In this document: piece after piece, positions 4,791 through 63,247 of the stretch | Layout of the letters: every line of letters starts with the position of its first letter | Position numbering within the stretch: the first letter of the stretch is position 1 | Source of the DNA: Firmicutes bacterium CAG:449 | GTDB taxonomy: Bacteria > Bacillota_I > Bacilli_A > RFN20 > CAG-449 | Direction of reading: 5' to 3' | Length of the DNA: 64,000 bases | Assembly: GCA_000432895.1 (NCBI GenBank) | Contig: FR889447.1 | Span: 20,182-84,181 of the forward strand | Position numbers and translations under genes: made by a program | The notes under the pieces: model-generated | Told to the model about the DNA's origin: nothing | Seen by the model: the letters and a program-made list of their open reading frames with translations, nothing else | Database searches by the model: none

Positions 4791-5912
4791 TTAATAATAA
4801 GATCTTACTGGAGTAACAATTTGAACAATTGATTCATCATCTAATGAAGATACTTTAAATGCTGACATTTCACCAACAAATGATAAAACAACATCTTCAC
4901 TTTGAGCAGCTTTAATTGCATCTATAACATAATTAACATTAAAGGAAATTTCAAATCTATCACCTGTATATCTAAAATCTTCAATTGTTTCAATAGCTGA
5001 TCCAATTTGTTCAGATTTAGAAGAGATTTCTAATTTATCACTAGAAACTGCTAATTTAACAATATTTTCTCTTTCAATAGCAAGTAAAGAAACTCTTTCC
5101 ATAGCAGCGACAAAATTATTTGAATTAACTTGTAAAACATAAGGATAGTTTGAAGGGAACATATTAGAAATTTTTGGGAAATCTCCAGAAATTAATCTTG
5201 AATAAATATTTGTATCTTTATAAGAGAAAACAGCTTTAGTTTCTGAAATAGTCATGACAACTTCACCATCTTCAACTAATTTTGAAACTTCAATTAAAGT
5301 TTTTACAGGAATGTTTGCTAAGAAATGAACATCTTGATTGATGTAATATGTTTTCTTTGCTAAACGATAGCTATCTGTTGCAACAAATTCAATTTCATTA
5401 CCATTTCCTTTAGCGTTAATAGCTGTTAAAACTGGTCTAACTTCTTTAGTAGATGCTGCAAAAGCTGTTTGAGAAACAATTTTCTTTAAATCTTCTGCTA
5501 AGAAAACAATTTCTTCTCCTTGTTTTTCTAAATCTAAATCAGGATATTCGTATGCTCTAATAGAATTTAATTTGAACTCAGATTTATTATCAGAAATTCT
5601 AGCAATTACTTCATCAATAATTTCTAAAGTTACAATGTCTGATTCTAATTTCTTTACGATTTCAAGAAGGAATCTAGCAGAGATTAATGTTTCACCTTCT
5701 TCATAATCTGTAATTAAATTTTTTCCATTTTCTTCAATTGGACATGTTGAAGAAATAGTTAATTCTCCATTGCTACCTAAAACTTGTAATTCATTAGATT
5801 TCATGACAAGTTTGAAATTTAAATAAGCAGGTGTTGGTGACTTTGGAACAATCGCAATATTTACAATATTTAAGATTTTTAAGAAGCGTTGTCTATTGAT
5901 TGTAAGTTTCAT
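4791..5912 (-). CDS. dnaN: DNA polymerase III beta sliding clamp
   Basis: 373 aa with the three-domain clamp architecture (MKLTINRQRFLKIL...). Located immediately downstream of dnaA. Confidence 0.95.
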   Translation of the reverse strand: MKLTINRQRFLKILNIVNIAIVPKSPTPAYLNFKLVMKSNELQVLGSNGELTISSTCPIEENGKNLITDYEEGETLISARFLLEIVKKLESDIVTLEIIDEVIARISDNKSEFKLNSIRAYEYPDLDLEKQGEEIVFLAEDLKKIVSQTAFAASTKEVRPVLTAINAKGNGNEIEFVATDSYRLAKKTYYINQDVHFLANIPVKTLIEVSKLVEDGEVVMTISETKAVFSYKDTNIYSRLISGDFPKISNMFPSNYPYVLQVNSNNFVAAMERVSLLAIERENIVKLAVSSDKLEISSKSEQIGSAIETIEDFRYTGDRFEISFNVNYVIDAIKAAQSEDVVLSFVGEMSAFKVSSLDDESIVQIVTPVRSYY

Positions 5913-5970
5913 AATTTTTCTCCTTTTATATTTTTATTTTTATATATTTATATTTAATAATAATAAAGAA

Positions 5971-5988
5971 TGTGGATAATGTGGATAA
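5971..5988. promoter_or_regulatory. Two tandem consensus DnaA boxes (TGTGGATAA x2) in the dnaA-dnaN intergenic region
   Basis: The sequence tgtggataatgtggataag contains two perfect 9-mers in head-to-tail arrangement. Confidence 0.8.
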
Positions 5989-6052
5989 GTACTAATTACA
6001 TTCTTTTTTATCAAAAATATTATATCATATATATGCTCATAAAACTATTTAA

Positions 6053-7432
6053 TTAAGCTTTTTTTAAGGCTTTTTTGATATCATTTACTGCATTTGCAAG
6101 TTGCAAATTTGTCTTAATTTCTGTCCCCACTTTATCCACACCGGTAATAACAGTTGAATGGTCTCGATGGAAAATTTGGCCTATTTTTTTATAAGGTGAA
6201 TTTAATAACAATCGGCATTCATACATTGCAATTCTTCTTGCTAGAGCAATTTGAGCATTTCTAACTGGTGAAAGAATTTGATCTGTTGATAAATGATAAT
6301 AAGAAGCAACTTCATTAATAATATCTTCTTCAGTTATTACTCTTTTTTTATCAGATTTAGGAATCATGATGCTTAAAGCATCTTGAATATCACTAAGAGT
6401 CACTTTTTGGGAACTATTAATAGTGACAGTATGGAATAATAATCTATTTAAAGCTCCTTCAAGTTCACGAACATTTTTTGAAAAGGTTTCCGCTAAAAAC
6501 AAAAGACCATCTTCATCATAATTACTCAATTTTAGACCTCTTGCAATGATTTTTCTTTTTAAAATTTCTAAAGCTGTTTCAGTATCTGGATTTTTTATAG
6601 AAACACATAATCCCATTATAAATCTAGAAACAAGTCGTTCTTCTAATCCTTTTAAATCACGTGGATGTCTATCTGAAGTTAAAACAATTTGCTTTCCTTT
6701 ATTTACTAATTTAGTAAATATATTAAAAAATTGTTCACTAGTTTTTTCTTTATTTGATAAAAATTGAATATCATCAACAAGTAATAAATCTACTTTATCA
6801 AAATATGCATAGAAATTTTGTTGGTCTTGATAGCCTCTAACATAATTAACAAAGGCTTCTAGAAAAGTATCAGTAGAAATATACATGATATTTGCTTCAG
6901 GATGCTTCTCTTGATAATAATTTCCAATTGCATGTAGTAAATGAGTTTTTCCAAGCCCAGAATGAGAATAAATAAAAAGTGGATTATAAGTTAAAGAAGA
7001 ATCATCACTAACAATTAAAGCGGCAGTCAAAGCCTCTTTATTACATTCACCTTGCACAAAATTATCGAAAGTATATTTTTTATTTAATTGACAATTTGGA
7101 AATAAATTAAATTCTTTTTTTACAGATTCAATGTCTACTTGAGCAGGTTGAATTTCAGCAACTTCGTTTGCAAGAACAAAATTTAAAGTATATTTAGTTT
7201 CTGTAATGTCATTAATAGCGCTTTTTAAAAGTTCACAATGATCATTTGAGGAAAAATACGCCTTAACTAAAGGAGAAGGAGTTAAAATATCCATTTTATT
7301 ATTATCTAAATTAATAAGTTTTAAATCAGAATAAAAAATAGAAAAGGTATGTTGATCTTTTGAAAGATTTTTTTCAACATTGCTCAAAACTTTATTCCAA
7401 AGATTTTTTTGTTTGGTAATTGTTACTGGCAT
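6053..7432 (-). CDS. dnaA: Chromosomal replication initiator protein DnaA
   Basis: 459 aa. AAA+ Walker A GLGKTHLLHAIGN. Sensor and C-terminal DnaA-box-binding HTH domain. AGGAGG RBS. Confidence 0.97.
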   Translation of the reverse strand: MPVTITKQKNLWNKVLSNVEKNLSKDQHTFSIFYSDLKLINLDNNKMDILTPSPLVKAYFSSNDHCELLKSAINDITETKYTLNFVLANEVAEIQPAQVDIESVKKEFNLFPNCQLNKKYTFDNFVQGECNKEALTAALIVSDDSSLTYNPLFIYSHSGLGKTHLLHAIGNYYQEKHPEANIMYISTDTFLEAFVNYVRGYQDQQNFYAYFDKVDLLLVDDIQFLSNKEKTSEQFFNIFTKLVNKGKQIVLTSDRHPRDLKGLEERLVSRFIMGLCVSIKNPDTETALEILKRKIIARGLKLSNYDEDGLLFLAETFSKNVRELEGALNRLLFHTVTINSSQKVTLSDIQDALSIMIPKSDKKRVITEEDIINEVASYYHLSTDQILSPVRNAQIALARRIAMYECRLLLNSPYKKIGQIFHRDHSTVITGVDKVGTEIKTNLQLANAVNDIKKALKKA

Positions 7433-7974
7433 AGTTTTGCCTCCTGCATAGCATTAAAATAATAGCATAATTTTTTGTAAATGAAACAAATAAAAGTGGA
7501 AAAAATATTTATCCACAAAAAAAGATAAAAAAACAGCGAAAAAATAGGGATTTTTTTAGTTATCCACATTTTATAATGTTGATAAGTGGTGTTTATAACA
7601 AATGTGGATAAATTGATGTGGAAAATGTGGAAAATTTAAAACAAAAATTTAATAATTGTTTATAATTAATGCCTAAAAATAGGTATTTTATTAAATTTAT
7701 CCACAAAATAAAATCATTATTAACATCTTAATTTTTATGTGGAAAAAATGTTAAAAATTGAAAATAAAGCAAAAAATAAATTGAATAAAATTATTAAAAA
7801 ATTCATTTTTACATGTAAATACTATATTAATTAAAAAAATGCAAGTAAATTAATGAAAATTTATAATTTTTTTTGCTAAAAATTTTTTTATTTAAATTCC
7901 TGCTTTTCGTTGACTTATTATTTATATATATATATAATCATAACGTATGTTAGTATCTATCGGAGGTGTATCAA
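7433..7974. other. oriC region: DnaA-box cluster plus AT-rich unwinding region between dnaA and rpmH
   Basis: Consensus TTATCCACA/TGTGGATAA boxes at 7509-7517, 7560-7568, 7603-7611 and 7697-7705. Degenerate TGTGGAAAA boxes at 7617-7634 and 7738-7746. Extremely AT-rich 7740-7960, including a (TA)n tract at 7921-7938. Confidence 0.8.
7910..7938 (+). promoter_or_regulatory. Consensus sigma-A promoter of rpmH (-35 TTGACT, 17-nt spacer, -10 TATAAT)
   Basis: TTGACT at 7910-7915 and TATAAT at 7933-7938, with an exactly 17-nt spacer. About 36 nt upstream of the rpmH ATG. GGAGG RBS at 7962-7966. Confidence 0.65.
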
Positions 7975-8109
7975 ATGAAAAGAACGTATCAACCAAGTAA
8001 AAGAAAACACACATCCGTAAATGGTTTCCGTGCAAGAATGGCAACCCCAAACGGTCGTAAAGTGTTAGCAAGAAGAAGATTAAAAGGAAGAAAAGTCCTT
8101 TCTGCTTAA
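7975..8109 (+). CDS. rpmH: 50S ribosomal protein L34
   Basis: Translates to [44 protein letters not shown], the canonical L34 sequence. Not in the ORF track because it is short. Confidence 0.95.
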
Positions 8110-8126
8110 TTCTTAATTACTTATTA

Positions 8127-8156
8127 AACCACTAGGGGAATCTCTAGTGGTTTTTA
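8127..8156 (+). terminator. Intrinsic terminator / attenuator between rpmH and rnpA
   Basis: Stem AACCACTAG / CTAGTGGTT with an 8-nt loop, followed by TTTTT. Confidence 0.7.
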
Positions 8157-8171
8157 AAAAGTTGGAGAAAT

Positions 8172-8507
8172 ATGCTAAAAAAAGAAGAAAGAGTAAAATC
8201 TAAAGAAGACTTTCAATTAGTTATTTCTAAAAAAAATAAAAAGTTTTCTGATTATTTTATTATATATTCTTTAAAAAGAGAAGAATATAATTATCCTAGG
8301 TTTGGAATTTCTGCATCAAAAAAATTAGGTGATGCAGTTAAAAGAGTAAAGATACGTCGACAAGTTAGAGCGATGATACACCAAATAAAATCTAACTCTT
8401 ATGTAAAACCGAAAGATTATGTGATTATTGTAAGAAATAAATTCTTAAATAATAATTATGAAACTAATTTACAAGCTTTAAAAAAGTTGATTATGGAGGA
8501 CAACTGA
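8172..8507 (+). CDS. rnpA: Ribonuclease P protein component
   Basis: 111 aa basic protein. KLGDAVKRVKIRRQVRA RNR-like motif. Conserved rpmH-rnpA-yidC order. Confidence 0.9.
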   Translation: MLKKEERVKSKEDFQLVISKKNKKFSDYFIIYSLKREEYNYPRFGISASKKLGDAVKRVKIRRQVRAMIHQIKSNSYVKPKDYVIIVRNKFLNNNYETNLQALKKLIMEDN

Positions 8508-9880
8508 TGAAAAAAAATCTTTTCAAGGTTGGTTTATTATTCTTAGGAGCTTTAGTTTTAACTGGATGTACAAAATCATTCAGTACAGTTCAAGATAAAG
8601 CAAATATGATGATAGTATATGAGAATACTAAAGTCGATGATAAAACAACAATGGAAACAATAATATCAAGTGTTAAAGATAAAGGATATTATGTTCCAAG
8701 TGAAAATTATTTTAATTATGTTGAAGAAAAAATAGTAGACAATGTTAAAACAAATTATGCTTCTGCGACATTAAATGGAATTGCTTATAGTGATATTAGT
8801 AAAGAAAGTTTATTAACTGCAGGTGAAACAAGAACTAATTTTGTTAAATCTAATGAATATGCAATAATAAAATATGCTAAAGAGAAAACTAATTCATTAG
8901 ATGATTTATGGTATAACTATGATTTATGGAGAAGTGAAGCTTTAAAAGATGGATTAACATTAGAAGATGTTGGTTCAAATTATTTCTTTAATGAAATGAA
9001 AACTTCATTTAATAATTATGCAAATACAATTACTGCAACTATTACACCAGTTGATGGAGTATTTGATGGATTAAAATTACAAGGTAAAGGATGGGGTTAT
9101 ACATTTACTAATGTAGGTCTTATAGAAGGTTTACTTGTTTGGCCAATTGCTGCTCTATTATATTATTTTGCAATGGCATTTTCTTCTTTAGGAGTTGGTG
9201 GTATTGTCTTATCTATTCTTCTTGTTACTATTATTGTTAGAGGACTATTATTGTTATTGACATTTAAACAAACTGCTTCTCAACAAAAAATAACTGCTTT
9301 ACAACCACAAATTGCAAAACTTCAAGAAAAGTATCCTCACGCTGATACAAATCAATATGAAAAGCAAGCAATGGCACAAGAACAAATGGAACTATATAAA
9401 AAGAATAATGTAAATCCATTTAGTATGTTTATTGTTTTATTAGTCCAATTTCCTGTATTTATTGCTGTTTGGGGAGCTATGTCAGGTTCGGCAGTTTTAA
9501 GAGAAGGGGAACTTTGGGGATTAAGATTATCCGCAAATACCGGAAGTTCAATTATTCATTGGACTGGAACACCTTCTGTTGTTGCATTAGTAATTTTTAT
9601 TATAATGGCTATTGCTCAAGCTGTTAGTATGTTATTACCTCAATTTATACAAAAAAAGAAAACTGAAAAAGTGGCAAAATTAAATAAAAATCCTACTGCA
9701 GCAAAAACAAATAATCAAATGATGATTATGAATATTGTAATGTTAGTGATGATTATTTTCACAGGTACTCAATTACCAGTTGCTATGTCAATTTATTGGA
9801 TTATTACTGCATTAATTTCACTTGTTCAATCGCTTGTTATGGCACATATTACAAATAGAAAAGCAAAAAATTATAAATAG
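8507..9880 (+). CDS. yidC: Membrane protein insertase YidC/Oxa1 with N-terminal lipoprotein domain
   Basis: 457 aa. Lipobox LTGC. About 200-aa extracytoplasmic N-domain followed by the 5-TM YidC core (PQIAKLQEKY..., NPFSMFIVLLVQFPVFIAVW). Basic C-tail. Confidence 0.9.
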   Translation: MKKNLFKVGLLFLGALVLTGCTKSFSTVQDKANMMIVYENTKVDDKTTMETIISSVKDKGYYVPSENYFNYVEEKIVDNVKTNYASATLNGIAYSDISKESLLTAGETRTNFVKSNEYAIIKYAKEKTNSLDDLWYNYDLWRSEALKDGLTLEDVGSNYFFNEMKTSFNNYANTITATITPVDGVFDGLKLQGKGWGYTFTNVGLIEGLLVWPIAALLYYFAMAFSSLGVGGIVLSILLVTIIVRGLLLLLTFKQTASQQKITALQPQIAKLQEKYPHADTNQYEKQAMAQEQMELYKKNNVNPFSMFIVLLVQFPVFIAVWGAMSGSAVLREGELWGLRLSANTGSSIIHWTGTPSVVALVIFIIMAIAQAVSMLLPQFIQKKKTEKVAKLNKNPTAAKTNNQMMIMNIVMLVMIIFTGTQLPVAMSIYWIITALISLVQSLVMAHITNRKAKNYK

Positions 9881-9891
9881 AGGAGAAGAAT

Positions 9892-10476
9892 ATGCTTTAT
9901 ACAGGAAAAAATTTAGAAGAAGCTATTAAAATAGCAGCTGAAAAAGAATATTGTTCAGAAGAAGAAATAGATTATTTACTTGTTGAACAAAATGAAGAAC
10001 AAACAACAATTGATGTTTATACAATAATGGATGTTATTGAATATGCTAAAAATTATGTTCACGATGGAATTGTTGCTTTAGGTTTTGAAAATAAAGTTAC
10101 TCCTTCTTTAAATGATGGAATTATTAATTTAAAAATTGAATCAGATCGTAATTCAATTTTAATTGGCAAAAATGGTAAATCATTACAAGCTTTAAATGAA
10201 TTAACAAAATTAGCAGTTAATAATAAATTTAAAAAGAGATTTAGAATTTTATTAGATATTAATGGATATAAACTTGAAAAATATTCAAAATTAGTTTCTA
10301 TTGCTAGACATTTAGCTCACGAAGTTCAAAAAACAAAAACAGATGTTGTTCTTGATCCAATGCCAGCTGATGAAAGAAGAGCAATTCATAATGCTCTTGC
10401 AGGTATGCCTCATATTAAGACTGAATCAGAAGGATTTGGTAAAGATAGACAACTTCATATTAAATATGTTGATTAA
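9892..10476 (+). CDS. khpB: Jag/KhpB RNA-binding protein (KH plus R3H domains)
   Basis: 194 aa. KH-like ILIGKNGKSLQALNEL. C-terminal R3H region VLDPMPADERRAIHNAL. Canonical position after yidC. Confidence 0.8.
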   Translation: MLYTGKNLEEAIKIAAEKEYCSEEEIDYLLVEQNEEQTTIDVYTIMDVIEYAKNYVHDGIVALGFENKVTPSLNDGIINLKIESDRNSILIGKNGKSLQALNELTKLAVNNKFKKRFRILLDINGYKLEKYSKLVSIARHLAHEVQKTKTDVVLDPMPADERRAIHNALAGMPHIKTESEGFGKDRQLHIKYVD

Positions 10477-11842: not shown

Positions 11843-14256
11843 ATGGAGGATAATATGAAAAAAAGCATAAAAGTATTAAGTGGACTTTTACTTATGACAA
11901 CTTTGTTTTCATGTGGAAATGAAAATAGTAGTTCCAATCTAATTAATACAAGTTCATTTAATACAAGTAAAACTACAAGTGAAAAACAATCTATATATGG
12001 ATTAACTTTTATTGTTGGTACAGAAAAGAAAGAAACTTATAATAAAGAAATTGATTTAAATTCTATTGATAATGATATTATAAGATTAAAAGTAACTAAA
12101 GATGATGAAGAAGTAAATAATGAAGAAATAATTTATTCTGTTGATGGTGATCAAAATACTATTAAGTCAATAGATTTATCTACTAATTCTAATCATAATT
12201 ATGCAACAGTTAATTTTAATGGTGTGGGAAATGTAACTATTACGTTTAGTCTTGCATTACATAATGAAGTTAGCAGTGTTTCAGTTACTTATAATGTTAC
12301 ACAAGGATTTTTAAATAAAACTATTATGCGTGGTGATATCAAAGAAGAGAATGGTGTAATTATTATTCCAAGTAAAGTTCAAGCTACCGCGGTTGCTGCT
12401 AAAGCTGATACAAAATGGGTGTTGTCTGCGATAATGGAAGTTCCTTTATATTCATCAAGTGAATCATTTGGTATGGAAGTGAATCATTTGGTATGGGGTC
12501 ATTTATTGATGAAGGAAATATTGCTTTTTGGTCTGCTTTAAGAAATTCTAATAAAACAAAAGATGGAAAGTATGACATCTATGTTCGTGATTTTTTCTCA
12601 GGATGGGATACTCCTTCTTATGACAAGGAAGCTTGTTTAGAATATAAAAATCTTGATTTTCCTCTTGAAAATGAAAAAACTATTGTTGATTTTAAATTAA
12701 TTAGAAATGGATTAAATTATTATTTTGAAATTAATGGTTATCATTATCAATATGAATCAAAAGAAGAAAAACCAACATATCCAGGCTTTTTCTCACAAAA
12801 TCAAAGTGCAGAAATTAAAAATTATCAAGTAAATTATGATCAAAAATGTGTTGATGAAGCTATTGAAAAAGAATGGAATGATAATTCTAAATTAGATATT
12901 TTAAAATTTTTAGAAAAAGATTCCACTTCAATAAAAGCAGGTGAAAGTAGAAGTTTTAATGTTGTTAAGGCTCCTGAATATGCAAAAGAAAATTATGTCT
13001 TTGATGTTAATGAAGAATATAAAGATTTTGTTGTAATTGAAAATAATTTAATAAAAGTTAATGAAAATGCTCCTGAAGGATTATTAGAAGTAACTTTATC
13101 TTCTGAAAGTAAAAAAATTACAGATAAATATTCTATTCAAATTACAAAAGATGTGCAAATTACAGAAAATGATTATATTTTAGCAACAGGTGGATCATAT
13201 TTATCTTCTTCAAATAGTATAGTTTTTCCAGAAGCTTTATTTGAAAATAATGGTATTGGTAATGAAACAAAATATGATTCTTCACCAACATATGGAGCAA
13301 TCTTAAAACAAAAAGTATATGGATGTTCATTTACTTTAGAATTTGATGTTAATAATTATAATGGACATGGACAAGAAAAGAATAATTTATTAATTTCTTT
13401 AGGTGGTAGATTTAATCAATATTATTTTTCTTTTGGTAATGGGGTTGCAAATGTAAATGTATATACTCAATCTTTAAAACAAAATAGAACTAACGAAGGA
13501 TCAAATATTATTGCAAATCAATTAAGTGGTTTAGATGGAAATAATCATCATGTTAGAATTCATTCAAATGAAGGAACTATTGAAATAACAATTGATAATA
13601 AAAAAGTAGTATTTTCTGAAGCAGTTCCATTAATGAATTTATCTTCTTTCTTCATGGAGTTACCTGTTAGAATAGCAACTAATAATGCATCCTGTGAAAT
13701 AAATAATATTGTTACTACTAAAGGAGAAATATCAAATAAAAATGTTTACTCTCACAATTCTAATTATGCATATCAGCAAGATGGTAAGTATGTTATTTCA
13801 ATGCTTACAAATAATGGATGGGATTATCGAGATAGATTAGATTTAAATGCTTGTACTTTTAAAGAATTTGGTAAATGCCAAGGAGCTTACATTGCAAAAT
13901 TTAAAGCAACTTTAGAAGGGGCTGGATCTAGTTCAAAATTATGCATAAGAATAGGAGATGAACAAGAACAAGAGGCACAAATTTGTTTTGGCGAAAATAA
14001 AATTGAAAATGGTAGTTTTAAAAATTCGTCATCAATTAATATTTCAAAAAATGATACTGTTTATGTAACAATTTATAGAAATAACAATGGTAAAGCTAAT
14101 ATTGGTGTTGCAAAAAATGAAAATGATGAACCAACATATATTGCTAAAGAATTTGAAAATGTTTCTGATAATGGAATATGGTTATGGGCAAGAAATTCTA
14201 AAAATGAAACAACTAAAAAAGTGTATATTGAAAATATTGTGGTGGAAAATTTATGA
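11843..14256 (+). pseudogene. Large surface lipoprotein gene (about 805 aa, Big_2-like plus jelly-roll-like domains) split into two ORFs by a 20-bp tandem duplication (11843..12541 and 12493..14256)
   Basis: Lipobox LFSC-GN at the N-terminus (probable start ATG 11855 after GGAGG). ORF1 reads ...SSESFGME then runs into an out-of-frame tail. ORF2 in the +2 frame reads SESFGMGSFIDEGNIAFW.... The duplicated 20-mer GTGAATCATTTGGTATGG(AA/GG) sits exactly at the junction. Removing one copy restores a single ORF. Confidence 0.6.
12459..12498 (+). repeat. Perfect-but-2 tandem duplication of a 20-bp unit (gtgaatcatttggtatggaa / gtgaatcatttggtatgggg)
   Basis: Direct reading: copies at 12459-12478 and 12479-12498. 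20 bp is not a multiple of 3, so the duplication causes a +2 frameshift. Confidence 0.9.
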
Positions 14257-43562: not shown

Positions 43563-43970
43563 CTATTATGAAAAATAAATATTTAACACCAAATTTTTTA
43601 ATTGAAACACTAGAATTAAATGAGGTAATTTTAACTTCTGGTTTTGTGTCAAAAGATGATAATAAATTAGGAGAAGATATAAATATCAAAATGAACTAAT
43701 TATTTTATCTGAGTTTGGTGGATATGGATTAAATATTGATGATTCAAAAAATGCTTGGTGTTATGGAAAAGCTAGTAACAATGTTGATGATTATATTTTA
43801 AAATTAACTAATATGTATCATTCTATTAAAAAATTAGATTTCATAAGAGGAATTTGTTATACTCAATTTAATGATATATTTCCAGAATTAAATGGAATTG
43901 TCTCAATTGATAGAAAGGAAAAAATAGACATTAAAATTTTAAAGAAACTTAATGATTTATTATAGGTGAT
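43563..43970 (+). pseudogene. Remnant (C-terminal about 120 codons, frameshifted) of a GH2-type beta-glucuronidase/beta-galactosidase gene
   Basis: Two short frames, ...YKYQNELIILSEFGGYGLNIDDSKNAW and ...ICYTQFNDIFPELNGIVSIDRKEK, align with the end of the GH2 TIM barrel (IIITEYG ... WNFADF...GIFTRDRKPK of GUS). No N-terminal part exists between the lysS terminator and this fragment. Confidence 0.45.
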
Positions 43971-43972
43971 TT

Positions 43973-46705
43973 ATGATTAAAAATTTATATAAAGAAGCAA
44001 CTTCATCCAAAGGAACCTTACCTTTTTCAAATTATTTTGATGTAAAAAATGGTTTTAAAAAGAATTTAAAAAAATGGAAATATGATTATCAAGAAAGCTT
44101 TAATTTTGATGAAGCAATTAAAGTTAACCCTCTTAAAGAAATTACTATTCCTTATATGGGCGAAATGCATGGGTATAATCGACCTGTATATTCAAATGAT
44201 CGATATCTTTTTCCATATTATCCACCTTATATTTTAAAACAAACTAGTGCGCAAATTTATGTTCATGATGAAGAGATTGTTCTTGATGAAAATGAATTTA
44301 TTTTACAAATTGAAGGTGTCGATAATGCATATTATTTATTTGTTAATAAAGAGTATGTTGGTTTTAGTAATATTTCACATTGTGTACAAAAATTTGATAT
44401 TAAAAAACATTTACAAAATGGACATAATGAAATTAGACTTGTAGTTTTAAAATTTACTCCATCATCTTATTTAGAAGATCAAGATAAAATAAGATTATCT
44501 GGAATTTTTAGAAATATATATTTAATTAAAAGAAAGAAAGATTACTTAGAAAATTTCAAAGTTGAAACTGATGTTGTTAATGATGAAGGTGTTGTTCATC
44601 TTACTGCTTCTAAAGAAGTTGAAGCAACATTTAATAAAAAAACTCAATTTGGAAAAGATATTACTTTTAAAATAAAAAATCCTAAATTATGGAATGCTGA
44701 AGAACCATATTTATATAATTTAATAATTAAGTGTAATGATGAAACAATTGTTCAAAAAGTTGGTATTAGAAAAATTGAAATCAAAGATAATTTATTTTTA
44801 ATTAATGGTAAAGTAGTTAAAATGCGTGGTGTTAATAGACATTCATTTTCTAAACTTGGATATGGAGAAAGTCATGCTTTAATGGAAAAAGATATTAAAT
44901 TAATGAAAAAGTTTAATATTAATGCAATTAGAACTTCTCATTATCCTGCGGATCCTTATTTATATGATTTATGTGATAAATATGGAATGTATGTTATTTC
45001 AGAGGCTGATTTAGAAACACATGGTACTGTTAGACAAGAAAATAAATATGAAATGGATAAATGGGATGAAGTTATTTCTAGTGAAAATTTCTATGATCAA
45101 ATTTTAGAAAGAGAATTATCTAATGTCATAATTAATCAAAATCATCCTTCAGTAGTGATATTTTCTTTAGGTAACGAATCAGGATTTTCTAATGTAATTA
45201 GTAAAATCGGCCATGAAATTAAAAAAATTGATAATAGACCTCTTCATTATGAAGGAGCTTTTAGAAATATTGATGGACATGGATTTTTTAATGAGCATGT
45301 TTTAGATATGTATTCTAGAATGTATCCACCAATTGAATATTGTAAAAATGAACCTGTTAAAATGGATAAACCATTTATTTTATGTGAATTTGCTCATGCT
45401 ATGGGAAATTCATTAGGAGAATTTAATGATTATATGTCTAGTTTTTGGGCTAATGATTGTTTCTTTGGAGCGTTTGTTTGGGAATGGATAAATCATGTAA
45501 TTATTCAAAACAAAAAAGAATGTTATGGTGGTGATTTCTTAGAAAGTATGCATGATGGTGAATTTTGTGTTGATGGTCTAGTTGATATTGATAGAAAAAT
45601 TAATCCAAGTATGTATGAATTAAGAGAGTGTTATTCACCAGTGAATTATTATCAAGAAAATAATAATATTTATGTTGAAAATAGGTATGATTTTATTTCA
45701 TTAAAAAATCACATTTTTAAAATTGAATTCTTAAAAGATGGAGTAATCTATAAAGAAGAATATGTTAATGTAGATGTTGTAGCTAAGCAAAAAGGCTTAT
45801 TATATGTTTTACCTCTACAAGAAGATTATCATTATGTATCGTGTAATATTTCTTGTATTTATCATGATGAATTAATTAGTAAAAAGAGTATTGTTTTAAA
45901 ACCTCTAAAGAGTTTAGTTTATCAATTAGATGATAATCAAAAACTAACATTTATTTTAAAAGAAAATGGCTTAATTGAACAAATTTTAATTAATGACAAA
46001 AAAATAATATCTAACATGAACTTTTTAATTAATAGAGTTTATATCTCTAATGATCGTAATATAAAAAATAATTTAGAATCATTGAGATTGAATTATACAT
46101 ATTTCTTTGCTACAAATATAGTAAAAGAAAATAATGAAGTCAAAGTAGAAGGATTTTTATCTGTTGATGCTTTAAAACCATTATTTAAAATAAATATTAC
46201 ATATTCAATCTTAAATAGCGAATTAAAAATGCTTATTAATGCAGAAAAAATTTGGGATTTTGCTAAAATATTACGCTTTGGTTTAAAACTTGAATTAAAT
46301 GATAATTATCAAGGAATTGAATATTTAGGTTTAGATGGTGAATCATATATTGATCGTCATCAAGGCAATGTTTTTGGAAAATATTTATTAAATGTGGAAA
46401 ATAATCATCGTTATATTGTTCCTCAAAACAGTAATGATCACTTCAATACAGTATATTTAAAATTGCTTCAAGATAATTTACTCATTCATAGCGATAATAA
46501 TTTTTCATTTTGTTATGATTGCTTTGATATTTTTGATTATAAAAAACATCGTGTAGATATGCCTTTAACAAGTAAACGATATTTATTTATTGATTATAAA
46601 ATGTCTGGCGTAGGAACTGCTTCATGTGGACCAGTTATTCAAGATAAATATTCAATTTTAGAAAAAAATATTAGGTTTAATCTATTTTTTAAAATAGTAA
46701 AATAA
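43973..46705 (+). CDS. lacZ: Beta-galactosidase, glycoside hydrolase family 2 (LacZ-like)
   Basis: 910 aa. SYLEDQDKIRLSGIFR, NAIRTSHYP, acid/base region GNESG and nucleophile region CEFAHAMGNS match LacZ catalytic motifs. No signal peptide. Confidence 0.85.
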   Translation: MIKNLYKEATSSKGTLPFSNYFDVKNGFKKNLKKWKYDYQESFNFDEAIKVNPLKEITIPYMGEMHGYNRPVYSNDRYLFPYYPPYILKQTSAQIYVHDEEIVLDENEFILQIEGVDNAYYLFVNKEYVGFSNISHCVQKFDIKKHLQNGHNEIRLVVLKFTPSSYLEDQDKIRLSGIFRNIYLIKRKKDYLENFKVETDVVNDEGVVHLTASKEVEATFNKKTQFGKDITFKIKNPKLWNAEEPYLYNLIIKCNDETIVQKVGIRKIEIKDNLFLINGKVVKMRGVNRHSFSKLGYGESHALMEKDIKLMKKFNINAIRTSHYPADPYLYDLCDKYGMYVISEADLETHGTVRQENKYEMDKWDEVISSENFYDQILERELSNVIINQNHPSVVIFSLGNESGFSNVISKIGHEIKKIDNRPLHYEGAFRNIDGHGFFNEHVLDMYSRMYPPIEYCKNEPVKMDKPFILCEFAHAMGNSLGEFNDYMSSFWANDCFFGAFVWEWINHVIIQNKKECYGGDFLESMHDGEFCVDGLVDIDRKINPSMYELRECYSPVNYYQENNNIYVENRYDFISLKNHIFKIEFLKDGVIYKEEYVNVDVVAKQKGLLYVLPLQEDYHYVSCNISCIYHDELISKKSIVLKPLKSLVYQLDDNQKLTFILKENGLIEQILINDKKIISNMNFLINRVYISNDRNIKNNLESLRLNYTYFFATNIVKENNEVKVEGFLSVDALKPLFKINITYSILNSELKMLINAEKIWDFAKILRFGLKLELNDNYQGIEYLGLDGESYIDRHQGNVFGKYLLNVENNHRYIVPQNSNDHFNTVYLKLLQDNLLIHSDNNFSFCYDCFDIFDYKKHRVDMPLTSKRYLFIDYKMSGVGTASCGPVIQDKYSILEKNIRFNLFFKIVK

Positions 46706-46757
46706 ATGAAAGAAAAATATGGAAATTTATTATTCTAAAAATAAAAATTTTTAACTT

Positions 46758-46810
46758 AAAAAGGACTGTTGAAAACCAAAAAAAGTAGGTTTGTTAACAG
46801 CCTTTTTTAA
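46758..46810 (+). terminator. Probable terminator after lacZ
   Basis: Imperfect long inverted repeat AAGGACTGTTGAAAACC / GGTTTGTTAACAGCCTT followed by TTTTTT. Confidence 0.55.
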
Positions 46811-61309: not shown

Positions 61310-63247
61310 ATGAAAATGAAAAAATTATTATTAACAACTTTACTTGCTTCAACTTTATTAGTTGGATGCAATTCTACACCTACTTCAAGTGAAGTAACTG
61401 AACAATATATGATTTATCAAAAAGCTGTTGAAGAAGGAAAGTTTACAGGTACTTATGAAGAATGGCTAGCTTCTATTAAAGGTGAAAAAGGCGACACTGG
61501 AGAAAAAGGCGATAAGGGGGATCCTGGAGAAAAAGGCGATAAGGGAGATCCTGGAGAAAAAGGTGATAAAGGAGATCCTGGAGAAAAAGGTGAAGATGGA
61601 AAAGATTCACCTCATTATGGTGAAAAACATACAGTCACTTTTAGTTTAAACGATGATGAATTTTTACCAGCAAATACCTCTACTACTTTAGAAGTTAATT
61701 ATGGAGATGTAATAAGTTTACCTATTCCTACTAAAGAAGGTTATACATTTGTTGGTTGGTTTACTGGCGATACTGTTAATGATGGACAATGGTTTAATCA
61801 TACAGCGGTTTTTGATGATATTACTTTATTTGCTAGATTTGCTTTAACTGAATATACTTTACCAACTAATGTAAAAGTTGTTTCAGGCGAAAAGGAAACA
61901 TATCATTATGGAGATGTTGTTACTTTGGAACCAGTTTTAAATGAAGGTGAAACTTTTAAAAAATTTACTTTTAGTTCTGTCTTTTTTAATCAAGGAGTGG
62001 AACAATTTACTTCCACATATTCTAGTAATTATCAATTAAAATATATTCTTGGTAAAAATACAAATTTACAAGTAGAAACTTTTGCTACTCCTACTTCCAC
62101 TGATGGAACAGAAGGAACTTATATTGGAGAATTAAAAAATGGCGATGAAATATTAGAATTTACTATTGTTCTTGATGGATTAGGCTCATATTGGTTTAAT
62201 GGTGATCGTTCTAGTATGGAAGTAAGTAATTTTGGTCATGTTGAAGATTGGGTAAGTGGAACAACAGAAAATTTATATTTTTCACCTTATATTGTTACAG
62301 GTAGTGAAACTGCTTTATATGATTCTTCAATTCATCTTAATGAAGAAATGCCTGATGGTAATCTTTATTCATATATTTTAGGTAAAGATGATCACGATGA
62401 TAAAGAAGTTTATTTATGGTTAGATGGTAATAAATATGAAGAAAGTACTTGTGATTATGCTGGCACATATTCTGATGCAACTGTAACAATTAAAATTAAT
62501 GAAGATGGAACAGGTACAATAACTGGGGATAGTTCTGTTAATGTTACTTCTTCAAAAAGAATAAGTGAAACCGTTATTGAATTAACTGATGAATATGGTG
62601 AAGTTTATAAACTTACTCTTCAAAGTGATGGAAAATATAAAATAAGATATGAGGATGAAACTCATTTATTAACATTTAAAGCTTATGTATTCCAATGGTT
62701 TGGAGTCTTTAAAGGAGTATATACTCCAGAAGAGGAAGAATGTGAAGTCAAATTAGTGGTTAATAAAGATAAAACTGCAGAAATTTATGTAAGTGGAATT
62801 AGTATAGGAACTTATGTAGTTAGTGAATATGACGATTCTTCACTTACTTTAATGGATGAATATAACGAAACAATAAAAGTCAGTTTACAACTAACAGGTT
62901 CTAATCAAGGAAAATATCGTTTACGTTTAGAAGATGGAACAGCTTATTTAACATTTACATCACTTGCAAATAATCCTTTAGAAGGTTTAACATTTACTGG
63001 AACATGTTCAGAAACTGAAGGAGAACATAAATTTGTTTTCAAAGAAGATTTTAAAGTAGATTATTATTGTGATGGTGCTCTTACATATGAAAATATGAAA
63101 GTAGATATTTCAAATTATCCTACTTCAATTGTTCTTATTGATGCTAATGATGAAGCAATTACATATACTTTAACTTTTACAAACGAAACAACTTTTACAG
63201 TTAACATGAAAGATGATTGTAGAAAAGTAACATATACTAAAAAATAA
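61310..63247 (+). CDS. Surface lipoprotein with collagen-like (Gly-X-Y)14 segment, Listeria-Bacteroides (Flg_new) repeat and three C-terminal repeats
   Basis: Lipobox LVGC-NS. GEKGDTGEKGDKGDPGEKGDKGDPGEKGDKGDPGEKGEDGKDS. Flg_new motif EGYTFVGWFTGDT. C-terminal repeats ...DEYGEVYKLTLQSDGKYKIRYEDETHLLTF and ...DEYNETIKVSLQLTGSNQGKYRLRLEDGTAYLTF. Confidence 0.65.
   Translation: MKMKKLLLTTLLASTLLVGCNSTPTSSEVTEQYMIYQKAVEEGKFTGTYEEWLASIKGEKGDTGEKGDKGDPGEKGDKGDPGEKGDKGDPGEKGEDGKDSPHYGEKHTVTFSLNDDEFLPANTSTTLEVNYGDVISLPIPTKEGYTFVGWFTGDTVNDGQWFNHTAVFDDITLFARFALTEYTLPTNVKVVSGEKETYHYGDVVTLEPVLNEGETFKKFTFSSVFFNQGVEQFTSTYSSNYQLKYILGKNTNLQVETFATPTSTDGTEGTYIGELKNGDEILEFTIVLDGLGSYWFNGDRSSMEVSNFGHVEDWVSGTTENLYFSPYIVTGSETALYDSSIHLNEEMPDGNLYSYILGKDDHDDKEVYLWLDGNKYEESTCDYAGTYSDATVTIKINEDGTGTITGDSSVNVTSSKRISETVIELTDEYGEVYKLTLQSDGKYKIRYEDETHLLTFKAYVFQWFGVFKGVYTPEEEECEVKLVVNKDKTAEIYVSGISIGTYVVSEYDDSSLTLMDEYNETIKVSLQLTGSNQGKYRLRLEDGTAYLTFTSLANNPLEGLTFTGTCSETEGEHKFVFKEDFKVDYYCDGALTYENMKVDISNYPTSIVLIDANDEAITYTLTFTNETTFTVNMKDDCRKVTYTKK
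61499..61579 (+). repeat. Three near-identical 27-bp tandem repeats (GGAGAAAAAGGCGATAAGGGGGATCCT) encoding GEKGDKGDP
   Basis: Copies at 61499-61525, 61526-61552 and 61553-61579 differ only at synonymous positions. Confidence 0.9.

What the first reader, a model, noticed from the sequence alone, without database searches (positions are those of the whole stretch)
11843..14256. Surface lipoprotein gene interrupted by a 20-bp tandem duplication (possible ON/OFF switch or recent pseudogenisation)
ORFs 11843-12541 and 12493-14256 overlap exactly at a head-to-tail duplication of a 20-mer (12459-12478 / 12479-12498). The two copies differ only at their last two nucleotides (AA versus GG). Both copies encode SESFGM in different frames.

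Deleting one copy fuses the ORFs into one lipoprotein of about 805 aa with Big_2-like Ig domains. The upstream ORF alone would still make a 232-aa lipoprotein carrying the signal peptide.

A 20-bp direct duplication is the kind of lesion that reverts by replication slippage or recombination. It could therefore act as a low-frequency phase switch on a large surface protein, or it may be a very recent inactivation.
Basis: seen in the sequence. Interest (0 to 1): 0.6.

Follow-up and report, generated by a model that had tools for sequence, protein, structure and literature searches.

The report
Lipoprotein gene split, probably assembly error
A perfect 20-base doubling splits a conserved surface lipoprotein gene in this draft gut-bacterium genome, but the same strain assembled by others has one copy and an intact gene, so it is most likely an assembly error or a one-off mutation, not a switch.

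Summary
AAGTGAATCATTTGGTATGG occurs twice head to tail (12457-12476 / 12477-12496), 100% identical. It is the only such repeat in 64 kb. It frameshifts a gene that otherwise encodes a 793-aa lipoprotein.

The window comes from the 2013-14 metagenome draft 'Firmicutes bacterium CAG:449'. Its two split products are on record for one contig only. The intact protein, identical to the reconstruction, is on 4 other contigs. One is a 100-kb re-assembly of a Nielsen-2014 study sample that matches the window over 22,382 bp with 0 mismatches and one gap, these 20 bp. Full-length 793-aa alleles are listed on at least 57 contigs. A 64%-identical orthologue and most more distant homologue clusters encode one polypeptide across the junction.

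There is no decay downstream and no microhomology at the borders, and the ancestral state has no repeat. The best reading is a contig-join or gap-filling artefact of the old draft (about 0.6). Next is a real, very recent private loss-of-function mutation (about 0.3). A functional phase switch is unsupported (about 0.07). Reads were not available, so this is not proven.

The protein is all-beta, with Ig-like and ConA/laminin-G-like lectin folds and no Pfam match. It is translationally coupled to a tyrosine-phosphatase-family lipoprotein gene. Interest is low.

The parts
11845..11849 (+). Shine-Dalgarno GGAGG, 5 nt upstream of the likely true start ATG 11855
   Evidence: Read directly. All database homologues start at MKKS.
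11855..12541 (+). Upstream fragment of the lipoprotein gene: 228 aa, made of signal peptide, lipobox LFSC (Cys20 codon at 11912-11914), 207 native residues and a 21-aa frameshifted tail
   Evidence: P0004 = CDC42644.1. Cys20 is conserved in at least 90% of 30 homologues.
12457..12476 (+). Copy 1 of the 20-bp unit AAGTGAATCATTTGGTATGG (the native sequence)
12477..12496 (+). Copy 2 of the 20-bp unit. This is the extra 20 bp absent from all other assemblies, and it causes a +2 frameshift after Met207.
   Evidence: it is the only gap in alignments to L001, L004 and L005.
12493..14256 (+). Downstream fragment of the lipoprotein gene: 587 aa as called, with no signal peptide and no GGAGG 5-10 nt upstream of its ATG
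   Evidence: P0005 = CDC42645.1
14253..15362 (+). Downstream lipoprotein gene of the tyrosine phosphatase family (Y_phosphatase3). Its start overlaps the stop of the split gene (ATGA). The pair is conserved in the 64% orthologue.

Best explanation
The extra 20-bp copy is most likely not present in the organism. It looks like a join or gap-filling artefact of the 2013-14 short-read draft 'Firmicutes bacterium CAG:449'. Two contig ends that shared 20 bases would have been concatenated instead of merged (inferred). The real locus is then a single intact gene (11855-14256 minus 20 bp) for a 793-aa surface lipoprotein. That protein is built of Ig-like and concanavalin-A/laminin-G-like beta-sandwich domains and is probably glycan-binding (inferred from fold). 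It is co-translated with a downstream tyrosine-phosphatase-family lipoprotein.
For: **Source of the window.** The split products are CDC42644.1 and CDC42645.1 of Firmicutes bacterium CAG:449. Each is on record for one contig only.

**The same strain has a single copy elsewhere.**
- The exact fused protein (P0003) is encoded intact on 4 ENA contigs.
- L004 (NIEL14-1_SAMEA2042653 scaffold_49, 100,375 bp) is a re-assembly of a sample whose label points to the same study (my reading of the label). It matches the window over 22,382 bp with 0 mismatches and a single gap, the 20 bp.
- L005 and L006 show 1 and 0 mismatches over 7.2 kb and have a single copy.
- L007 is 100% identical over 15,025 bp.
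- Other strains differ by 0.4-1%, so these contigs come from the same strain.

**Wider comparison.**
- At least 57 listed contigs encode full-length 793-aa alleles.
- The 266-aa cluster member is a contig-end fragment that reads through a single-copy junction.
- The 64% orthologue and most of the 38 remote homologue clusters are single polypeptides across this point.

**The lesion itself.**
- The frameshift falls inside a strand (204-210) of a confidently modelled beta-sandwich with pLDDT 95-98.
- The tract is exactly 2 x 20 nt with no microhomology. Blunt concatenation of overlapping ends gives this pattern. It is atypical of slippage.
- This is the only broken gene in the window. All other genes match the gene calls in other strains.

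**Assembly method.**
- The CAG assembly recipe, as re-used by others, is Velvet scaffolds followed by gap filling with GapCloser (PMC4563136).
- False duplications next to gaps and from wrong gap filling are documented in old short-read assemblies (PMC9516828).

**Own knowledge, not tested here.** Benchmarks of Velvet and SOAPdenovo scaffolds report many indel errors of 5 bp or more per bacterial genome. That is far more than the real differences expected between isolates of one strain.
Against: - No reads were available, so the artefact is inferred, not shown.
- A pure de Bruijn path cannot create the junction k-mers.
- It is not known whether CAG:449 was assembled from sample SAMEA2042653 or from another sample of the same person.
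- If the source was a different sample, the difference in copy number could be real variation within one strain.
- Only one such duplication is seen in the window, so no pattern of repeated join artefacts can be demonstrated.
Confidence: 0.6

Rival explanations
1. A real, very recent, private loss-of-function mutation. A spontaneous 20-bp tandem duplication arose in the population sampled for CAG:449 and inactivated the lipoprotein gene. It probably also lowered expression of the translationally coupled phosphatase-family gene. It would be a fresh pseudogene or a within-host adaptive loss of a surface protein, with no programmed reversibility.
For: - The sequence as deposited carries the duplication, and NCBI annotated two proteins from it.
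- The duplication is perfect, and the rest of the gene is undamaged. Same-strain contigs give an identical protein, as expected for a very young mutation.
- The gene shows many amino-acid changes among strains: 10 nonsynonymous versus 2 synonymous differences from L001, all in codons 434-743. Selection on this surface protein is therefore unusual, and loss could be tolerated or favoured.
- A de Bruijn assembler cannot invent the junction sequence without a join step.
Against: - The state is unique to one contig among at least 58.
- Three other assemblies of the same strain have a single copy.
- There is no microhomology at the borders, which is unusual for replication slippage.
- Two samples of one strain that show 0 SNPs in 37 kb should differ at very few sites genome-wide. 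A real difference falling in this window is therefore a priori rarer than an assembly indel (inference).
Confidence: 0.3
2. A reversible phase switch. The duplication and its precise loss would toggle the surface lipoprotein OFF and ON within a clonal population. The precedent is the tandem duplications in cap3A of Streptococcus pneumoniae type 3.
For: - Precise loss of one copy restores the full ORF.
- Identical-strain assemblies differ in copy number. A mixed population could produce that.
- The target is a surface-exposed, fast-evolving lipoprotein.
- There is a precedent: reversible duplications in cap3A give OFF and ON states (Waite et al. 2001, as summarised in PMC11163986).
Against: - There is no recurrence. 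Only one contig carries the duplication, against at least 57 listed full-length ones, and no other member listed is split.
- The ON state holds no repeat. Switching OFF would need a de novo 20-bp duplication without microhomology each time, which is not a high-rate event.
- No SSR, invertible element or recombinase lies at the locus.
- Nothing here measures heterogeneity within a sample.
Confidence: 0.07

Closest known systems
False short duplications at contig joins or filled gaps in short-read scaffolds (for example Velvet or SOAPdenovo scaffolds closed with GapCloser; general phenomenon described in PMC9516828)
   Same: The duplication is exact and head to tail with no flanking microhomology. 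It is present in one old draft only and absent from re-assemblies of the same strain. It creates a falsely split gene.
   Different: The documented cases are mostly larger duplications in eukaryote assemblies. Here no gap or N marks the site, and the join step is inferred, not seen.
Tandem-duplication phase variation of cap3A in Streptococcus pneumoniae type 3 (Waite et al. 2001; cited in PMC11163986)
   Same: An out-of-frame tandem duplication lies inside an ORF for a surface-related function. Precise loss of one copy restores the ORF.
   Different: In cap3A many independent duplications and their reversion were observed in culture. Here there is a single occurrence in one assembly, no evidence of mixed populations, and no recurrence among about 58 contigs.
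Ordinary frameshift pseudogenes in bacterial genomes
   Same: One gene is split into two overlapping ORFs, and the N-terminal fragment keeps the signal peptide.
   Different: There is no further decay. Identical-strain contigs carry the intact gene, so if the lesion is real it is only days to years old.
Multi-domain Gram-positive surface lipoproteins with Ig-like and ConA-like/laminin-G lectin modules (fold neighbours: laminin LG1-3 5xau, neurexin LNS 3qcw, galectins, BT3469 4jqt)
   Same: The predicted all-beta architecture has two Ig-like and three jelly-roll domains. A lipobox Cys is present.
   Different: There is no Pfam or NCBIfam family match. The sequence family is small, with 38 clusters at 50% identity among 1.84 billion representatives. 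The ligand is unknown.

Membership tests
Phase-variable locus switched by reversible tandem duplication (cap3A type) | Out-of-frame tandem duplication inside the ORF whose precise loss restores the reading frame | tested here: met
   removing 20 bp gives a 793-aa ORF identical to P0003.
Phase-variable locus switched by reversible tandem duplication (cap3A type) | Both states coexist and interconvert within a clonal population | not testable with these tools
   No reads are available. Same-strain assemblies differ in state, but an artefact explains that equally well.
Phase-variable locus switched by reversible tandem duplication (cap3A type) | Recurrence: duplications seen repeatedly and independently in the gene | tested here: not met
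   The split products are on 1 contig. At least 57 listed contigs carry full-length 793-aa alleles, and the 266-aa member is a contig-end fragment with a single copy. Only 15 of 101 cluster members could be listed.
Simple-sequence-repeat contingency locus | A pre-existing tract of several short (1-7 nt) repeat units in the ORF or promoter whose copy number varies | tested here: not met
   The ancestral state has one copy of a unique 20-mer. TRF finds no SSR tract at the site.
Assembly join or gap-fill duplication artefact | Present in one assembly and absent from independent assemblies of the same strain or sample | tested here: met
   L004, L005 and L006 show 0-1 mismatches over 7-22 kb and have a single copy. 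It is unknown whether they derive from the same reads.
Assembly join or gap-fill duplication artefact | No reads span the duplication junction, and a scaffold join or filled gap lies at the site | not testable with these tools
   Neither reads nor an AGP or scaffold file is available. The window contains no N.
Bacterial lipoprotein | N-terminal signal peptide ending in a lipobox with an invariant Cys | tested here: met
   The sequence MKKSIKVLSGLLLMTTLFS-C20 is read. C20 is conserved in at least 90% of 30 homologues. No dedicated predictor was run.
Big_2 (PF02368) domain protein | Pfam Big_2 match at or above the gathering score | tested here: not met
   There is no hit at E<=10. Big_2 hits in relatives lie N-terminal to the homologous region, and P0034 has a sub-threshold hit at 387-452. 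The family profile weakly matches Big_2-type Ig domains at positions 334-423, E about 2e-4 to 2e-3.
Concanavalin A-like lectin / laminin G fold | Jelly-roll beta-sandwich domains that match LG, LNS or galectin structures | tested here: inconclusive
   Foldseek probability is 1.0 to laminin LG, neurexin LNS and galectins, but TM-scores are low because the query has several domains. Pfam Laminin_G_2 scores only E=0.056.

The most novel reading that the evidence does not exclude
The duplication is real and reversible. An uncultured, low-GC gut Bacilli lineage (CAG:449) would switch a glycan-binding surface lipoprotein, and by polarity its phosphatase-family partner, OFF and ON through gain and precise loss of a 20-bp tandem duplication. 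Same-strain samples would then differ in state.
Probability: 0.05. Interest if true: 0.5.

Novelty: not a real feature. Interest (0 to 1): 0.1.

Why it matters
As it stands this matters mainly for data hygiene. The public CAG:449 record annotates two 'unknown' proteins (228 aa and 587 aa) where the species has one 793-aa lipoprotein. Pseudogene or phase-variation calls made on such early metagenome drafts need read support.

If reads showed that the duplication is real and mixed, it would be a rare example of duplication-based phase variation in an uncultured gut commensal. The underlying gene family is small and uncharacterised: a lipoprotein with Ig-like and lectin-like domains, paired with a tyrosine-phosphatase-family lipoprotein. 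It is mildly interesting in its own right.

Tried and rejected
- **Exact look-up of the 587-aa product for its contig.** Not on record in the contig index, so the source record could not be read.
- **JGI metagenome scans.** Both the duplication junction and the single-copy junction gave 0 hits. The species is absent from that collection, so the negative result is uninformative.
- **GTDB genome scan with the protein alignment.** It returned only the 64% orthologue, in an uncultured Bacilli MAG. The window's own species was not returned, so no species-representative comparison was possible.
- **Nielsen et al. 2014 methods.** The paper is not held. The k-mer size and gap-closing step for CAG:449 are therefore unverified. 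The idea that 20 = k-1 for k = 21 stays a guess. A follow-up study that used the same recipe ran Velvet at k = 45-75 plus GapCloser.
- **Literature searches for short join artefacts and for the sample accession.** Only general false-duplication papers were found. The term 'CAG:449' could not be searched.
- **Promoter and terminator scan.** Hits were no more frequent than in shuffled sequence.
- **Pfam and NCBIfam on the fused protein.** No family matched.
- **Taxonomy look-up of the organism name.** It failed.
- **Programmed frameshifting or internal re-initiation to rescue the split gene.** Considered and dropped. It would need a -2/+1 shift without any slippery motif, and there is no good Shine-Dalgarno sequence before ATG 12493 (read).

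Full report
**1. The observation**

Tandem Repeats Finder gives a period-20, 2.0-copy, 100%-identical array at 12457-12496 with unit AAGTGAATCATTTGGTATGG.

That shift produced the apparent 'AA versus GG' difference. In the correct register the two copies are identical. The tract is exactly 40 nt, because the bases on either side break the periodicity. There is therefore no microhomology at the borders.

- The 20-mer has no other match in the window, even with 3 mismatches, and 0 matches are expected from shuffles.
- It is the only exact tandem duplication of period 12-59 in the 64 kb.
- In 353 kb of related loci only one such event exists, an in-frame 27-bp collagen-type repeat.
- A short-range repeat scan found only this duplication, a collagen G-X-Y array and DnaA-box repeats.

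Removing one copy gives a single ORF. A GGAGG at 11845-11849 sits 5 nt before ATG 11855, and every database homologue starts at MKKS. The real product is therefore 793 aa, not about 805. The upstream fragment is 228 aa: 207 native residues plus a 21-aa frameshifted tail.

**2. Where the window comes from, and what other assemblies show**

Exact-sequence look-up identifies the two split products as CDC42644.1 and CDC42645.1 of 'Firmicutes bacterium CAG:449'. Each is on record for one contig only, of 101,504 bp. CAG names come from the co-abundance-gene-group assemblies of Nielsen et al. 2014 (own knowledge).

The reconstructed 793-aa protein exists letter for letter in the collection (P0003) on 4 ENA contigs. 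The twelve full-length 793-aa cluster members that were listed sit on 57 contigs in all. The one short member (P0010, 266 aa) is a contig-end fragment that reads ...SESFGMGSFIDEGN..., which is the single-copy junction.

DNA comparison gives the following:

| Locus | Source | Aligned length | Mismatches | Gaps |
|---|---|---|---|---|
| L004 | 'NIEL14-1_SAMEA2042653_METAG-scaffold_49', 100,375 bp | 22,382 bp (window 1855-24256) | 0 | one, the 20 bp |
| L005 | low-coverage SPAdes-type contig | 7.2 kb | 1 | one, the 20 bp |
| L006 | low-coverage SPAdes-type contig | 7.2 kb | 0 | the 20 bp plus 1 bp |
| L007 | same ENA assembly as L005 | 15,025 bp | 0 | none |

Other strains of the species are 99.0-99.6% identical. 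L004-L007 are therefore the same strain as the window. The label of L004 suggests a re-assembly of a sample from the same study that produced CAG:449 (my reading of the label).

The two JGI metagenome scans found neither junction, so that collection simply lacks the species.

**3. The gene behind it**

The intact form is clearly ancestral and functional.

- A 64%-identical orthologue (804 aa, from human-gut MAGs) is intact. It is also followed by a Y_phosphatase3 lipoprotein gene with overlapping stop and start.
- In the window the overlap is ATGA at 14253-14256.
- A full HMMER scan of 1.84 billion representatives finds 38 homologous clusters. Most cover residues about 60-750 as one chain at 25-38% identity.
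- Pfam and NCBIfam give no family for the protein.
- AlphaFold2 with a 30-sequence alignment gives a confident all-beta model with mean pLDDT 87.

From its strand pattern and confidence profile I read five domains:

| Residues | Predicted domain |
|---|---|
| about 48-150 | Ig-like sandwich |
| about 160-320 | beta-sandwich |
| about 340-425 | second Ig-like domain |
| about 430-615 | jelly roll |
| about 625-793 | jelly roll |

Foldseek against the PDB returns laminin LG, neurexin LNS, galectin and BT3469-type ConA-like lectin folds. The family profile weakly matches Big_2-type Ig domains at positions 334-423. The bona fide Big_2 hits in relatives are extra N-terminal modules outside the homologous region. 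The protein is therefore best described as a probable glycan-binding surface lipoprotein (inferred from fold). Its lipobox Cys20 is conserved in at least 90% of 30 homologues.

The frameshift falls after Met207, inside strand 204-210 of the second domain (pLDDT 95-98). The 228-aa product would be an Ig domain plus a broken sandwich. The 587-aa ORF has no signal peptide and no Shine-Dalgarno sequence at a proper distance. The two-copy state is therefore a null allele. It is probably also polar on the coupled downstream gene (inferred).

**4. Age of the lesion**

Against L001 (99.0% identity) the gene shows 10 nonsynonymous and 2 synonymous differences, all in codons 434-743. Polarised by eye against the 64% orthologue, 7 of the 10 amino-acid differences are derived on the L001 side, 1 is derived in the window, and 2 are ambiguous. 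Against same-strain contigs there are none. There is thus no decay downstream of the frameshift. The lesion is either extremely young or not real.

**5. Explanations**

*(a) Assembly artefact, about 0.6.*
- The state is unique to one 2013-14 draft.
- Three other assemblies of the same strain lack it.
- The blunt 2 x 20 structure without microhomology is what results when two contig ends sharing 20 bases are concatenated.
- The CAG recipe, as re-used by others, was Velvet scaffolding followed by GapCloser (PMC4563136).
- False duplications next to gaps or from wrong gap filling are documented (PMC9516828).
- Indel errors per genome in such assemblies far outnumber the real differences expected between samples of one strain (own knowledge).

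Weak points:
- No reads were available.
- No N or join is visible at the site.
- It is unknown whether the source sample was SAMEA2042653.

*(b) Real private loss-of-function mutation, about 0.3.* The record does carry the duplication, and a de Bruijn path cannot invent the junction without a join step. Surface proteins are common targets of within-host loss. However, the event would have to be both rare in type and extremely recent.

*(c) Phase switch, about 0.07.* A precedent exists in pneumococcal cap3A (Waite 2001, via PMC11163986). Here there is no recurrence among about 58 contigs. The ON allele holds no repeat to promote the OFF transition. There is no evidence of mixed populations.

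**6. Comparison with known systems and verdict**

The finding resembles a cap3A-type switch only in its bare anatomy. It fails the one testable defining feature, recurrence. It also fails the definition of an SSR contingency locus. It meets the testable criterion for an assembly artefact, namely absence from independent assemblies of the same strain. The decisive criterion, junction-spanning reads, could not be tested.

Novelty rating: 'not a real feature' as the most likely case, otherwise an ordinary fresh pseudogene. Interest is 0.1. The most novel reading not excluded is a real reversible duplication switch on a lectin-like lipoprotein in an uncultured gut Bacilli lineage. I give it a probability of about 0.05 and an interest of about 0.5 if true.

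Noticed in passing
window 4791-10476 (repeats at 7507-7526 and 7695-7714): The window spans the chromosomal replication origin region. dnaN and dnaA lie on the minus strand, then rpmH, rnpA, yidC and jag on the plus strand (gene calls of the identical locus L004). The dnaA-rpmH spacer holds repeated ATTTATCCACAAAA elements that contain the DnaA-box consensus TTATCCACA.
   Followed up: no
window 61310-63247 (repeat array 61478-61612): A collagen-like (G-X-Y, 9/18/27-nt periodic) plus Flg_new surface protein varies in length between strains: 645 aa here and 636, 627 or 562 aa elsewhere. The in-frame repeat copy number changes. This is a better candidate for real repeat-driven surface variation than the 20-bp duplication.
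   Followed up: partly
window 13154-14083 (codons 434-743 of the repaired lipoprotein gene): Between the window allele and the L001 allele there are 10 nonsynonymous and 2 synonymous differences, all in the C-terminal lectin-like domains, and none in the first 433 codons. pN/pS is about 1.2, against about 0.2-0.3 for the neighbouring aro genes. This suggests diversifying or relaxed selection on the exposed C-terminal half.
   Followed up: partly
window about 43700-46800; loci L016, L018, L021, L023, L024: This is a strain-variable island next to the hydrogenase genes. Some strains carry the GH2 beta-galactosidase gene seen here. Others instead carry Rce1-like, Lgt, a 901-aa Big_3 protein and a 1333-aa GH28-like protein.
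   Followed up: no
L006 5820-6817: In a low-coverage (about 1.9x) assembly of the same strain, a 1-bp indel splits the 3-dehydroquinate synthase gene into 98-aa and 218-aa calls. It is a clear example of an assembly error mimicking a pseudogene in this species' data.
   Followed up: partly
proteins P0033 (404 aa) and P0067 (83 aa): These fragments are 85-97% identical to internal parts of the lipoprotein but have unrelated N-terminal sequence. They could be chimeric contigs or real rearranged alleles in other samples.
   Followed up: no
L012 741-4574: One strain has a different gene set, including an AbiEii toxin-family gene, upstream of the dus gene. It takes the place of the ATP_bind_3 and FtsH-type (AAA/Peptidase_M41) genes and the 569-aa Metallophos gene found there in the window and the other strains.
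   Followed up: no
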